From NCBI RefSeq assembly GCF_001642725.1, contig NZ_LSUQ01000044.1, forward strand, positions 1 through 20,723: a stretch of DNA of 20,723 nt, given 5' to 3'. Positions 1-3,000 of the stretch are shown in pieces; the stretch's first letter is position 1; the number at the start of each line of letters is the position of its first letter. Source of the DNA: Ferroacidibacillus organovorans. Lineage in GTDB: Bacteria > Bacillota > Bacilli > Alicyclobacillales > SLC66. The position numbers are program-made.

Positions 1-3000
1 CTCCCACACGCACTTGACATCGTTCGCGTGACGGCAAAGGTCATCAGACAAAACCTTATCTGGGCGCTCTGCTATAACTTGATTGCACAAGCGATTGCTA
101 TCGACGGGTACGCACAACCCGTTCTCGCGGCAGGGGCGATGGTCTTTTCTAGCCTATTTGTATTGGGTAATTCACTCCGCATCGTCGGCTGGTCACCGTG
201 GCGCTATGTACGTCGGATTGGCCTGACATTCGGCGTGGTTTCGATCCTTGCGCTGCTAACGTATTTTCGATTGTAGAACACATCTTGGGGGCGGCTTTAT
301 GAATCTGTGGACAGATATCCATCCGTGGAATTCCTGGCGTCCGGACGTCTTTTTTCTGGTTCTTCTCCTTGGCGTGATGTATCAGGTGGTCACTCGTGAG
401 AAAACAAGGTCGCCGGTCTCCTTTTTTCTTGGTCTCCTTCTTTTGTATTTGGCGTTAGGTCCGCTCGCGGCGCTCGGAGAGCGCGCTTCGTTTACGGCAT
501 ACATCATTCAGATGCTCCTCATGACGATGGTGCTTCCTTGGCTGCTCGTTCTCCGTCAACCCGATTTCGTCCTGCGACCACTGCTTGGCATCGGGTGGAT
601 CAAGCGCTTGGTCAGGTACGCGACGCATCCGCTTATCGCGCTGGTCTTTTTCAACGCCCTGCTCACAGCGATGCTGCTTCCCTCCGTTTTGAATCTTGTC
701 GTAACGATAAATTGGTTGCATATCGTAGCGCAGAGCGTCACGGCGCTCGCGGCAATTTGCTTTTGGTGGCCGATTGCCAACCCGCTGCGTGAAGAGAAAG
801 AGCTCACACGTGGACGGAAAATTCTCTACATCATCTACTCGATGAATTTCATGATGCCAATCCTTGTCGCGCTGTTTGTCTCTAATCACTCGTGGTATCA
901 AGATTTGGCGCGCGGCGCGGGACAACTCGGAATAAACGCACTCGCCGATCAGCAGATTGGCAGTGTCGTTATGCTTTGCGCGATGTATCTCGTTTATGGA
1001 ACGATCGGATCGAGAATCTACGTGCGCCAAGATCAATCGGTTTGGTATGAGTAAGGCGGTCATGCATAGAATGAGAAATTTTGAGACAAAGCTATAGGTG
1101 TAGACACATGTGGTTGGAAATTCCTGCAATGGAGGATTTTTATGACCTATAAATTGCCCCTCGCAACAACGCTGTTTCTCTTTTCGCTCTCGGTCATCGG
1201 CGCGCTTGTCGTTGGACTCAATGCGGGATTTGTCTGACCAGACTGGCCACTCTGCAACGGTTCACTGATCCCACCGTTGCATGGGCTTGTGCTCGTTGAG
1301 TACATGCATCGCTTGATCGCGCTGATTGCAAGCATTCTCATTCCGTTCAATGCAATTCACATGTGGTGGATGCATCGGAAAAATCGTTTGACGTCCCGCC
1401 TCGCACTTTTGTCTATGCTTTTTCTCGCACTGCAAGTTGCGCTAGGCGCGTTGATCGTCGTGTTCGTCCTGCCCGGCGCGTTTACAACGATTGATGTGGC
1501 GAATAGTTTCCTACTCCTCATCGTGCTGTCTGCAATGACGGCAGTCGGTTGGCGGGAGCACAGACAAAAGACGAAGCAACCGAGCGCAGAGAAGCTGCAA
1601 ACGGACGCCGATCGCGCAAAACGGTTTCGCCTTCCCGTTTTTTTTGCGCTCGGAACGATCTTTCTTCAATCACTCGTGGGAGGCTATTTTCGTCACTCTG
1701 GGAACAGTCAAGCGCTGTTCGGGCAACATTCGTATTTGCTCAGTCACCATCAACGGCAGGTGCCGAGTGAATTTGAAGCGTTGTTCTGGCTGGTTGTGCA
1801 CATCAGCGTTACGGCGGCTGTTTTCGCGTCCGTCGTATGGCTACTCACGGTGGCCATGCGTTTTGGACAGTATCGCGCGGGTGCGTTTGGCCTCCTTTGG
1901 CTTGTGATCTACCAGATTATCCTTGGGTTCGTGACGCTTCAAACCAAACTCTCCGTCATCTCGGACACGCTTCACTTTGCCGGAGCGAATGCGATGGTCG
2001 GAGTTGCCGGATATCTCGTGGCGCAGGTTCTCCTCGACCTATCGGCGGTGCGCATCGAGGCGCGCGAAAAAACACGGCGCAAGATGGTTCCGGCACACTC
2101 GTAATGCTTATTACAAAGGGGAATCGGGAATGAGATACCGAAAAGCGGTTGCAACGGGCGCACAGGACATGGCCGTCGATGTGCAATCGGGGGGGGCAGT
2201 ACCGCGCACGATAAGAGGTGTCGTGCGCGATTTAATCAACGTGACCAAACCGGGCATCACGATGTCCAATGCGATGATGACGTTTGTAGGTATTTGGCTT
2301 AGCGCAGGCAGACACCCTGCGTTCTCGCTCGCCATGATGACACTTGCCGGCAGCAGTCTCGTGGTGATGGGCGGATGCGCGATGAACAATTTTATGGATC
2401 GGGATATCGATCAGTTGATGACGCGAACGAAAAAAAGGCCACTGCCAAATCAACGGTTGTCTGGTTGGTCGGTGATCTCGCTCGGCGCGCTGCTCGCGTT
2501 TCTTGGCGTCGCCCTGTTGTGCGTCTATGTCAATCTGCTGTCGGCTGTGATGGCGCTGATCGGGTTATTTTTCTATGTGATCGTATATACAGGACTCACA
2601 AAGCGCACGACCACGCTTAGCACCGTGATTGGAAGCGTGTCAGGTGCGATGCCGCCGCTTATCGGCTGGACGGCGATGTCCGGTACGCTTTCTACAGGAG
2701 CGTGGCTGCTCTTTCTCTTTATGTTCATCTGGCAACCTCCGCACTTTTGGGCGCTCAGCATGCGCCGGGTCAAAGAGTACGCGGCGGCAAGGATTCCTCT
2801 TTTGCCAGTCAAATATGGCTTTGCGCCAACCAAACGACAGATCGTCGCGTGGACAGTTCTCTTAGTGCCTGTATCCCTCTTGCTGTATGTCGCGCATGTC
2901 ACAGATGTCTTCTACCTGATTTCCGCACTGCTTCTCGGAGGTGTTTGGATTGTCAAAGCGTTGCGCGGATTGCGCGCCAAAGATGACATCGCATGGGCCA

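What a model noticed while it worked through the whole genome (the two positions that open the first line are those of the whole stretch)
1142..2104. Selenocysteine in place of the first loop cysteine of heme A synthase (CtaA), two copies
Both type-1 heme A synthase genes (C44:1142-2104, beside ctaG and ctaB; C57:6869-7828, beside a second ctaB) carry an in-frame TGA exactly at the first cysteine of the conserved extracytoplasmic pair (NAGFV-TGA-PDWPLC), which split the gene calls (g02380+g02381; g02635 called short). I read the TGA as selenocysteine, which makes CtaA a selenoprotein whose essential Cys35/Cys42-type redox pair is a selenenylsulfide. New would be a selenoprotein family in haem a / respiratory oxidase biogenesis, on the outer face of the membrane of an aerobic acidophile that lives at pH 2-3 (where a selenol, unlike a thiol, stays ionised).
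Evidence so far: Read-through gives a full 320-aa CtaA with one TGA and no other stop. The genome has tRNA-Sec (C21:27006-27102), selA, selB, selD and other TGA-split redox genes. In 64 Alicyclobacillales genomes the closest CtaA homologues have '1 TGA' inside in G000 (2), G001 (2), G006, G003, G009 = 7 genes, 5 species, 4 genera of family SLC66; G008, G061 and all Alicyclobacillaceae matches at E below 1e-30 have none; alignment puts TGA and Cys in the same column: NAGF[VAS]-U-P[DNH]WPLC against NA[GV][FL][VAI]-C-P[DN]WPLC. A hairpin 16-20 nt after the UGA (GCAACGG..11 nt..CCGUUGC) is kept in all 6 Sec genes folded, with changes on both sides (GCGGCGG/CCGCUGC; alifold -18.4). selA (TIGR00474, over its cut-o [...]
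(Added by a program. Inside this text positions count along the whole contig: contig position 1 is position 1 of the stretch shown here. "Call 12" and the like, gene names such as g00115 and contig names such as C1 are that model's own, and its searches are not shown. The text may have been shortened before it was handed on; [...] marks where a part breaks off. The agent that wrote the report below was given it as the finding of a first reader that could run no searches.)

Follow-up and report, generated by a model that had tools for sequence, protein, structure and literature searches.

The report
Selenocysteine-type heme A synthase genes
Two heme A synthase genes of an uncultured Bacillota bacterium carry an in-frame UGA exactly where relatives have an essential cysteine; it is most likely read as selenocysteine, which would tie the making of respiratory haem a to selenium.

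Summary
Window 1142-2104 (+) is a CtaA/COX15 heme A synthase gene between ctaG and ctaB. It has one in-frame TGA (1235-1237, codon 32) and no other stop. The TGA aligns with the first cysteine of the extracytoplasmic loop pair.

A second copy on contig C57 and five genes in four related genomes have TGA in the same column. That makes 7 genes in 5 genomes and 4 genera. All 5 genomes have selA, and this genome also has tRNA-Sec, selB, selD and seven other confirmed selenoprotein genes.

The 31 codons before the TGA are under purifying selection as strong as the codons after it. TGA is otherwise this genome's commonest stop codon. Contigs from three other studies keep the TGA.

Selenocysteine insertion is the best reading (about 0.85). 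A hairpin begins 15 nt after the UGA in all 7 genes and is decayed in the two nearest Cys-type genes. However, it does not fit the canonical bacterial SECIS loop rule, and its covariation is not significant.

I found no heme A synthase in published lists of selenoprotein families. The acidophile and "ionised selenol" argument is unverified and chemically overstated.

The parts
299..1054 (+). ctaG (Caa3_CtaG cytochrome oxidase assembly factor), the upstream neighbour
   Evidence: PF09678, E 4.8e-34; TIGR02737, E 6e-25, below its cut-off
1131..1135 (+). Shine-Dalgarno GGAGG, 6 nt before the ATG of ctaA
   Evidence: Read from the sequence. None of the in-frame start codons after the TGA has such a site.
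1142..2104 (+). ctaA, heme A synthase type 1C / class C / type 1.0. 320 codons including one in-frame TGA, ending in TAA.
   Evidence: PF02628, 74.4 bits. Profile match to B. subtilis CtaA 6A2J, E 1.1e-20. The model's best fold matches are 6A2J (TM 0.73) and 8AW5.
1235..1237 (+). In-frame TGA, codon 32, read as selenocysteine. It aligns with the first Cys of the ECL1 pair (Cys35 of B. subtilis CtaA).
   Evidence: Unchanged in contigs of three other studies.
1253..1255 (+). TGC, Cys38, the second residue of the loop pair (U-x5-C here; C-x6-C in B. subtilis)
   Evidence: Invariant in 9 of 9 family genes; aligned with the WPLC of 6A2J
1253..1281 (+). Hairpin after the UGA. The 5' arm is 1253-1261 and the 3' arm 1273-1281 (9 bp), with an 11-nt loop. 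The stem starts 15 nt after the UGA. Candidate but non-canonical SECIS.
   Evidence: dG -12.4. In register in 7 of 7 Sec genes, 94% of cells paired against 28-56% when slid. Decayed in the two nearest Cys genes.
1298..1312 (+). E53-Y-M-H56-R57, the E-x-x-H-R motif of helix 2 (E57/H60 in B. subtilis numbering)
   Evidence: Invariant E53, H56 and R57 in 9 of 9 family genes; aligned to EWSHR of 6A2J
2130..3062 (+). ctaB, heme O synthase, the downstream neighbour
   Evidence: TIGR01473, 309.8 bits against a cut-off of 210.3; PF01040. Open frame from ATG 2130.

Best explanation
Both ctaA genes of this genome encode a full-length, eight-helix heme A synthase. Codon 32 (UGA) is decoded as selenocysteine by the cell's SelA/SelB/SelD/tRNA-Sec system.

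Shown:
- the gene, the TGA and its alignment with the first ECL1 cysteine;
- the Sec machinery and its use elsewhere in the genome;
- purifying selection across the TGA;
- the recurrence of the TGA in a clade that mixes Sec and Cys forms.

Inferred:
- SelB is recruited by the hairpin that starts 15 nt after the UGA.
- Sec32 and Cys38 form a selenenylsulfide in the first extracytoplasmic loop, in place of the disulfide seen in B. subtilis CtaA.
- The enzyme turns heme O from the neighbouring CtaB into heme A for the genome's several heme-copper oxidases.
- Heme A supply from these two genes therefore depends on selenium.
For: 1. Reading frame. There is one TGA and no other stop in 320 codons, and the reading frame is kept: PDWPLC follows in frame.

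2. Sec/Cys pair. TGA sits at the position of the first Cys of [UC]PxWPxC in all 25 Alicyclobacillales genes compared, 7 with TGA and 18 with Cys. It aligns with the first loop Cys of B. subtilis CtaA. Passages of PMC8239418 and PMC12808453 say the ECL1 pair, Cys35/Cys42, is disulfide-linked and important for activity.

3. Recurrence. Seven genes in 5 genomes and 4 genera carry it, including both paralogues in two species.

4. Machinery. tRNA-Sec, selA, selB and selD are present. selA is over its cut-off in 5 of 5 genomes with a TGA-type ctaA.

5. Machinery in use. Seven other genes of this genome have a TGA spanned by a family match: SelD by TIGR00476, and AhpC-TSA x3, thioredoxin, Thioredoxin_3/Grx-like and DSBA-like by Pfam domains.

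6. Selection. dN/dS for the 31 codons before the TGA is 0.11, 0.03 and 0.08 in three pairs. For codons 33-135 it is 0.08 and 0.03 in the two pairs where dS could be estimated.

7. Start site. A GGAGG site precedes the ATG at 1142. No such site precedes the in-frame starts after the TGA.

8. TGA is a normal stop here. It ends 705 of 1466 long frames.

9. Hairpin. It is in the same register in 7 of 7 Sec genes. The Pro codon third base in the 3' arm is G in 7 of 7 Sec genes and C in 2 of 2 nearest Cys genes. Those two Cys genes fold worse than their own synonymous resamplings (fractions 0.88 and 0.94).

10. Independent samples. Contigs of three other studies keep the TGA. Six of 7 variant sites are synonymous.
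Against: - There is no protein or selenium-labelling evidence.
- The hairpin does not meet the canonical bSECIS model quoted in PMC13188914. Its loop is 11-13 nt rather than 3-9, and there is no G in the first two loop positions. Spacing (24 nt) and energy do fit. In the same genome, 5 of 7 other selenoprotein genes have a small loop with G in its first two positions.
- Covariation is weak: one stem pair changes on both sides, and 271 of 500 shuffles score as high.
- Against synonymous resampling, the hairpin is at or below 0.065 in 5 of 7 Sec genes but at 0.31 and 0.38 in two. 2 of 18 Cys genes also reach 0.03.
- Random 36-nt coding windows of this genome fold as well as the two local copies 2% of the time.
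- The helix-4 histidine (His123 of B. subtilis), reported as essential, aligns to Asp118. This holds for Sec and Cys forms of the whole order alike. It bears on how canonical the enzyme is, not on Sec.
Confidence: 0.85

Rival explanations
1. Leaky stop rather than Sec. The UGA is read at low efficiency by a near-cognate tRNA (Trp or Cys), or tRNA-Sec carries cysteine, so the working enzyme holds no selenium.
For: The hairpin is not a canonical SECIS. The base after the UGA is C in all 7 genes, and UGA-C is known as a weak termination context (general knowledge). A Cys at this site is what all other relatives use.
Against: A lineage needing Cys could simply use TGY, as its closest relatives do. 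Both paralogues in two species keep TGA through saturated synonymous divergence. TGA forms occur only in genomes with selA, 5 of 5. The structure after the UGA is kept in Sec genes and lost in the nearest Cys genes.
Confidence: 0.07
2. Broken or split genes. The TGA ends translation, and either nothing useful is made or a product lacking helix 1 and the loop pair is made from an internal start. Heme A would then come from elsewhere or not at all.
For: Gene callers did split or shorten these genes. Database entries of 228-288 aa begin after the TGA. A third CtaA-like ORF exists on C3.
Against: The 31 codons before the TGA are under purifying selection (dN/dS 0.03-0.11) and have their own strong ribosome-binding site, while the internal starts have none. 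Each of the 7 genes has exactly one TGA and no frameshift or other stop. Any product started after the TGA would lack the first loop residue, and one from the database-called ATG at 1304 would also lack Cys38 and Glu53. The third ORF lacks the N-terminal quarter of the family profile. The genome has seven COX1 matches.
Confidence: 0.03
3. Assembly or sequencing artefact at one base.
For: Draft assembly of 98 contigs.
Against: The same TGA is in 7 genes of 5 assemblies. It is also in contigs from three other studies, one at word depth 233.
Confidence: 0.01

Closest known systems
Bacillus subtilis CtaA (heme A synthase, PDB 6A2J/6IED), type 1B / class B
   Same: Same Pfam family and fold. Same helix-2 motif E-x-x-H-R. 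A loop pair in ECL1 at the aligned position, where the B. subtilis pair is disulfide-linked and important for activity (passages of PMC8239418 and PMC12808453).
   Different: The first loop residue is encoded by TGA, not Cys. Spacing is U-x5-C, not C-x6-C. There is no second Cys pair in ECL3. Asp118 stands where His123 aligns. Identity in the fold alignment is about 22%.
Cys-type type 1.0 / 1C CtaA of Alicyclobacillales, for example the Kyrpidia tusciae protein named (42% identical) and the 18 Cys genes
   Same: Same subtype: Cys pair in ECL1 only, long ECL3, TTIDVxNS in helix 4. PMC8239418 Table 1 lists 'Alicyclobacilli iron-oxidizers' under type 1.0.
   Different: These have TGY (Cys) at the first loop position. 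The two nearest ones lack the hairpin.
Bacterial selenoproteins in which Sec replaces a redox cysteine of a thiol-disulfide protein (Prx-like, thioredoxin-like, DsbG-like, thiol:disulfide interchange protein; table in PMC13188914)
   Same: Sec/Cys exchange at a paired cysteine, mosaic Sec and Cys forms among close relatives, and UGA followed by a hairpin in the coding sequence.
   Different: This is a polytopic haem-binding membrane enzyme of cofactor biosynthesis, not a thioredoxin-fold protein. The pair is U-x5-C, not UxxC. The hairpin loop is non-canonical.
Membrane selenoproteins listed in PMC13188914 (SO_0444 family Cu/Zn efflux transporter UxC, ABC permease SaoP; passages seen)
   Same: Sec in an integral membrane protein.
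   Different: Unrelated families and functions; none is in haem or oxidase biogenesis.

Membership tests
Heme A synthase (COX15/CtaA, PF02628) | Match to the family profile over the curated cut-off | tested here: met
   74.4 bits against 29.9, E 1.1e-20. No NCBIfam heme A synthase model reaches its cut-off: the best is 22.3 bits against 550.
Heme A synthase (COX15/CtaA, PF02628) | Eight transmembrane helices in two four-helix bundles; fold of solved heme A synthases | tested here: met
   AlphaFold2 model, pLDDT 78.3, pTM 0.80, eight long helices. The only two Foldseek matches with E <= 0.001 are 6A2J (TM 0.73) and 8AW5 (TM 0.60).
Heme A synthase (COX15/CtaA, PF02628) | Helix-2 motif Glu57-x-x-His60-Arg (H1) | tested here: met
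   E53-Y-M-H56-R57, invariant in 9 of 9 family genes; aligned to EWSHR of 6A2J
Heme A synthase (COX15/CtaA, PF02628) | Helix-4 histidine H2 (His123 of B. subtilis) | tested here: not met
   Asp118 aligns to it. All 25 Alicyclobacillales genes read T[TV][IV]DVxNS with no His in this helix, Cys forms included. PMC12808453 reports H2 mutants of B. subtilis as inactive (passage). This is a feature of the whole subtype, not of the Sec forms.
Heme A synthase (COX15/CtaA, PF02628) | Helix-6 and helix-8 histidines H3 and H4 (His216, His278) that bind heme b | tested here: inconclusive
   H220 and H278 are invariant in 9 of 9 and lie in the sixth and eighth long helices of the model. No residue-level alignment to 6A2J was obtained for this half: one search gave no match.
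Heme A synthase type 1C / class C / type 1.0 | Cys pair in ECL1; none in ECL3 | tested here: met
   U32 and C38 in ECL1, with the first position encoded by TGA. No Cys between helices 5 and 6. Classification taken from passages of PMC12808453 and PMC8239418.
Heme A synthase (functional context) | Stands with heme O synthase and oxidase assembly genes; oxidases present | tested here: met
   ctaG and ctaB flank copy 1 and a second ctaB flanks copy 2. Seven PF00115 matches in the genome.
Heme A synthase | Converts heme O to heme A | not testable with these tools
   Needs haem analysis of a strain or a complemented mutant.
Bacterial selenoprotein (UGA decoded as Sec) | In-frame UGA aligned with Cys in homologues | tested here: met
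   7 TGA against 18 Cys at the same motif position
Bacterial selenoprotein (UGA decoded as Sec) | tRNA-Sec, SelA, SelB and SelD in the genome | tested here: met
   selA in 5 of 5 genomes with a TGA-type ctaA.
Bacterial selenoprotein (UGA decoded as Sec) | TGA-bearing orthologues in other Sec-using organisms | tested here: met
   G001 (two genes), G008, G009, G010
Bacterial selenoprotein (UGA decoded as Sec) | Canonical bSECIS: 3-9 nt apical loop with G in its first two positions, 4-16 bp stem, 16-37 nt from the UGA, MFE <= -7.5 (PMC13188914) | tested here: not met
   Stem 9 bp, spacing 24 nt and dG -12.4 fit. The 11-nt loop UCACUGAUCCC with no G in its first two positions does not. The paper says a subset of selenoprotein genes fails this model. 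BSepDB reports canonical SECIS in 87.4% of its entries.
Bacterial selenoprotein (UGA decoded as Sec) | Selenium in the protein | not testable with these tools
   Needs 75Se labelling or mass spectrometry.

The most novel reading that the evidence does not exclude
Sec at the first ECL1 position would mark the loop pair of type-1 heme A synthase as a working redox or nucleophilic centre on the outer face of the membrane, not a structural staple. This lineage, found in mine-drainage-type samples, would have swapped in selenium because thiol chemistry is too slow there. Haem a synthesis, and with it respiration through haem a oxidases, would then be selenium-dependent in these bacteria. The Sec/Cys mosaic within one clade would be a natural experiment on what the pair does.
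Probability: 0.3. Interest if true: 0.75.

Novelty: new variant of a known kind. Interest (0 to 1): 0.62.

Why it matters
What the ECL1 cysteine pair of heme A synthase does is not settled. The passages I read say only that it is disulfide-linked and important for activity. In known selenoproteins, Sec nearly always replaces a catalytically active redox cysteine (general knowledge). A natural Sec form therefore argues that this cysteine does chemistry, and it gives ready-made variants to test (U, C, S at position 32).

It would also add cofactor biogenesis for respiratory oxidases to the processes that can depend on selenium. It is one more selenoprotein in an integral membrane protein. Finally, these genes are split or truncated in public protein collections, so surveys built on called proteins miss them.

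Tried and rejected
- Earlier findings: the tool was not open, so none were used.
- Metagenome scan with the family alignment. The tool back-translated the motif with Cys. Its 80 loci held 99 Cys-type motifs and no true TGA form, so the scan says nothing about Sec forms. The best hit was only 44% identical.
- Broad DNA pattern with a 30-54 nt gap. None was CtaA, and even the known family members were not returned. Uninformative.
- Phylum sample of 400 other genomes with the family profile at E <= 1e-25. No match. The threshold was too strict to say anything about distant heme A synthases.
- Window TGA at 19781. This is an HTH-cupin regulator and a LysE exporter in one frame, so two genes and not Sec.
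- C15:14660 and C63:12650. The TGA lies before the domain, so these are not Sec.
- Relaxed genome-wide scan for TGA near Cys. It gave 349 candidates, mostly noise; only the DSBA-like one was followed.
- Sequencing runs: no RNA holder listed.
- PMC6255202 (structure paper) is not held. Its content is cited only through passages of other papers.
- C-terminal half of the protein against solved structures: no match.
- Rfam: nothing at gathering scores in the window. Only a chance-level CRISPR-repeat hit (E 8.3) lies near the hairpin.
- Pair shuffles on the hairpin were not significant.
- One weak match in G040 (C33:61733-62629, E 1.9e-15) showing '1 TGA, 1 TAA' was not examined.
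Full report
THE OBSERVATION

Window 1142-2104 on the + strand is an open frame of 320 codons. 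It has a single internal stop, TGA at 1235-1237 (codon 32), and ends in TAA. Read through, the protein matches Pfam COX15-CtaA (PF02628) at 74.4 bits against a cut-off of 29.9.

The gene stands between ctaG (Caa3_CtaG, 299-1054) and ctaB (heme O synthase, TIGR01473 at 309.8 bits, probably 2130-3062). A GGAGG site lies 6 nt before the ATG at 1142. None of the in-frame start codons after the TGA has such a site.

The genome holds a second copy at C57:6869-7831 (-). It is 62% identical, has one TGA in the same column, and stands next to a second UbiA-family ctaB gene.

WHAT THE PROTEIN IS

- A profile of the nine family genes matches B. subtilis heme A synthase (PDB 6A2J) at E 1.1e-20.
- An AlphaFold2 model (pLDDT 78.3, pTM 0.80) has eight long helices.
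- The model's only two Foldseek matches with E <= 0.001 are the B. subtilis and Aquifex heme A synthases, with TM 0.73 and 0.60.
- The helix-2 motif E53-x-x-H56-R57 is invariant.
- There is a pair in the first outer loop (U32, C38) and no cysteine pair in the third. This makes it type 1C / class C / type 1.0 in the schemes quoted in PMC12808453 and PMC8239418. The latter lists 'Alicyclobacilli iron-oxidizers' under that type (passages).

The same passages say that the ECL1 pair of B. subtilis CtaA (Cys35, Cys42) is disulfide-linked and important for activity, while the ECL3 pair is not needed. The TGA aligns with the first of these two cysteines.

One canonical feature is missing. The helix-4 histidine (His123) aligns to Asp118. 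This is true of all 25 Alicyclobacillales genes I compared, Cys forms included, so it is a trait of the subtype and not of the Sec forms.

IS THE TGA DECODED?

The genome has tRNA-Sec and selA, selB and selD over their cut-offs, with selD itself carrying a TGA.

The machinery is in use. Besides selD, six further genes have a TGA inside a Pfam domain that spans it: three AhpC-TSA peroxiredoxins, a thioredoxin, a Thioredoxin_3/glutaredoxin-like protein and a DSBA-like protein.

TGA is not reassigned. It ends 705 of 1466 long frames.

The reading frame is kept across the TGA, since the conserved PDWPLC follows in frame.

The 31 codons before the TGA are under purifying selection. dN/dS is 0.11, 0.03 and 0.08 in three pairs, against 0.08 and 0.03 for codons 33-135 in the two pairs where dS could be estimated. 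A gene that ended at codon 32, or began after it, would not show this.

RECURRENCE

Family level. Of 19 genomes searched in the family, 7 have a close match, giving 9 genes. Seven genes carry one TGA and no other stop: two each in G000 and G001, and one each in G010, G008 and G009, covering four genera. Two genes have Cys (G002, G003).

Order level. Across the order (64 genomes), all 18 further matches at E below 1e-30 lie in the other family and none has a TGA. One has a TAG. One weak match with a TGA and a TAA was not examined.

Sec machinery. selA is present in 5 of 5 genomes with a TGA-type gene, in 16 of the 18 other genomes of the family and in 13 of 45 genomes of the other family. G002 (Cys form) has it. 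In G003 (Cys form, 60% complete) it was not found.

Exhaustive motif scans. Two scans covered one genome for each of 185,579 species.
- AGF-x-TGA-P-x-WP-x-C gave 29 stretches.
- TGA-P-x-WP-x-C-x14/15-E-x-x-HR gave 113 stretches.
- Each returned only the same three true genes, all from MAGs of this family. The window's own genome and near copies are left out by the tool.
- So with these motifs the trait is confined to one uncultured family. Forms with other motifs would be missed.

Other samples. Contigs from three other studies cover 1235-1237 without change, one at word depth 233. Of seven variant sites in the gene, six are synonymous third positions and one is T154A in a loop (codons read).

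EVOLUTION

The nine family genes form one clade (100/100). Inside it the G008 Sec gene is sister to the G002 Cys gene (100/99), so at least two changes of state are needed.

The large protein collection adds three further full-length Cys forms inside the clade (P0006-P0008), alongside near-copies of the G002 and G003 Cys forms. It also adds three truncated calls (P0011, P0014, P0020) that group with the G008 Sec gene and probably hide more TGA forms. Their DNA could not be fetched.

This mosaic of Sec and Cys among close relatives is what known selenoprotein families show.

THE HAIRPIN

In all seven genes a stem starts 15 nt after the UGA: nt 19-27 pair with 39-47, which is 1253-1261 with 1273-1281 in the window.

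In favour of a SECIS:
- 94% of cells pair in register, against 28-56% when one arm is slid.
- The third base of the Pro codon in the 3' arm is G in 7 of 7 Sec genes and C in both nearest Cys genes. A Pro third base in the loop varies freely.
- Those two Cys genes fold at -3.4 and -2.5 kcal/mol, worse than 94% and 88% of their own synonymous resamplings.

The limits are real:
- Only one stem pair changes on both sides, and the shuffles are not significant (271 of 500).
- Against synonymous resampling the seven Sec genes score 0.04, 0.065, 0.03, 0.04, 0.31, 0.38 and 0.001. 2 of 18 Cys genes also reach 0.03.
- 2% of random coding windows of this genome fold as well as the two local copies.
- The loop (11-13 nt, no G in its first two positions) fails the canonical bSECIS model quoted in PMC13188914. 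Five of the seven other selenoprotein genes of this genome have a small loop with G in its first two positions: GGC, GGU, GGG, GGU and CGGGA, starting 17-23 nt after the UGA.
- The review and BSepDB both say that a minority of selenoprotein genes lack a canonical SECIS: 87.4% of BSepDB entries have one.

I therefore count the hairpin as moderate support and as the main open point.

MECHANISM

Most likely (about 0.85), SelB brings Sec-tRNA to the UGA and a full-length enzyme with Sec32 is made. By analogy with the B. subtilis disulfide, Sec32 and Cys38 would form a selenenylsulfide in the first outer loop. This bond is inferred, not shown.

The enzyme would convert heme O from the adjacent CtaB into heme A for the genome's heme-copper oxidases, which give seven COX1 matches.

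The third CtaA-like ORF (261 aa) lacks the N-terminal quarter of the family profile, including helix 1, the loop pair and the helix-2 motif. It is therefore not an obvious selenium-free substitute.

RIVALS

- A leaky stop read by a near-cognate tRNA (0.07).
- Broken or split genes (0.03).
- An assembly artefact (0.01).

The grounds for and against each are given under Rival explanations.

All relatives are unnamed MAGs.

Leaving out a possible source study, runs of three studies hold at least half of the sampled words. They are labelled metagenome, sediment metagenome and mine drainage metagenome. A mine tailings run holds two short pieces.

This fits a mine-water habitat but gives no pH.

A free selenol has a pKa near 5.2 and a thiol near 8.3 (general knowledge). 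At pH 2-3 the selenol is mostly protonated, though about a thousand times more ionised than a thiol. 'Stays ionised' is therefore too strong.

NOVELTY

Searches:
- Full-text search for 'heme a synthase' with 'selenocysteine' found 0 papers.
- 'CtaA' with 'selenoprotein' found 32 papers. I saw only the listing of the top 20, and none concerned this by title. In the one I checked, PMC12808453, the word refers to a neighbouring SelW-like gene.
- 'COX15', 'selenocysteine' and 'bacteria' found one paper, unrelated by title.

Papers checked, passages only:
- The 2026 review PMC13188914 tabulates more than 110 prokaryotic selenoprotein families. It has no occurrence of CtaA, COX15 or PF02628, and its 'heme' hits are multiheme cytochromes.
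- deep-Sep (PMC12013277) and BSepDB (PMC13326102) have none in their main text.
- The BSepDB supplement was cut when stored, so its family table may not have been covered.
- The 2026 survey of 8,093 heme A synthases does not mention selenocysteine.
- NCBIfam has no model that names this protein.

Subscription journals were not searched.

I rate this a new variant of a known kind: a further Cys-to-Sec family, in an enzyme class where none is on record.

Noticed in passing
G000 contigs outside the window: C1:124129, C53:13791, C93:1334, C11:33708, C76:8800, C3:17769, C34:8789 (loci L048-L052, L410, L014): Seven further selenoprotein genes, each with the TGA spanned by a family match. They are three AhpC-TSA peroxiredoxins, a thioredoxin, a Thioredoxin_3/Grx-like protein, a DSBA-like protein (UPFC) and SelD. 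Five have a small loop with G in its first two positions, starting 17-23 nt after the UGA.
   Followed up: partly
window 1493-1495 (codon 118); the same column in 25 genes: The helix-4 histidine reported as essential in B. subtilis CtaA (His123) aligns to Asp118. All 25 Alicyclobacillales type-1.0 genes read T[TV][IV]DVxNS there, with no His in that helix.
   Followed up: partly
L003:1432-2217 (-) = G000 contig C3: A third CtaA-like ORF of 261 aa matches only profile positions 106-321 of PF02628. It lacks helix 1, the loop pair and the E-x-x-H-R motif.
   Followed up: partly
G000 contigs C58, C55, C9, C62, C23, C39, C27: Seven matches to heme-copper oxidase subunit I (PF00115), five of them full length. 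This is an unusually rich set of terminal oxidases for a 3-Mb genome.
   Followed up: no
window 19202-20425 (+): An HTH-plus-cupin regulator and a LysE-type exporter lie in the same frame, parted only by TGA at 19781. The domains do not span the TGA, so these are two genes and not a selenoprotein.
   Followed up: yes
proteins P0006-P0008, P0011, P0014, P0020: Public protein collections hold full-length Cys forms inside the same clade. They also hold truncated calls of 228-265 aa that group with the G008 Sec gene and are probably further TGA forms cut short by gene callers.
   Followed up: partly
loci L055, L065, L066, L068, L071, L073, L075, L080, L081 (and L069): Nine Terriglobia/Terriglobales MAG loci share an almost identical stretch that matches the DNA motif, in a frame with stops close on both sides. 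One Acidobacteria locus (L069) also matches the motif, but with a different flank. This looks like a conserved gene read off-frame and is not CtaA.
   Followed up: no
window 1238 and the same place in the other Sec genes: The base after the UGA is C in all 7 ctaA genes. It is also C in 4 of the 7 other selenoprotein genes of this genome.
   Followed up: no
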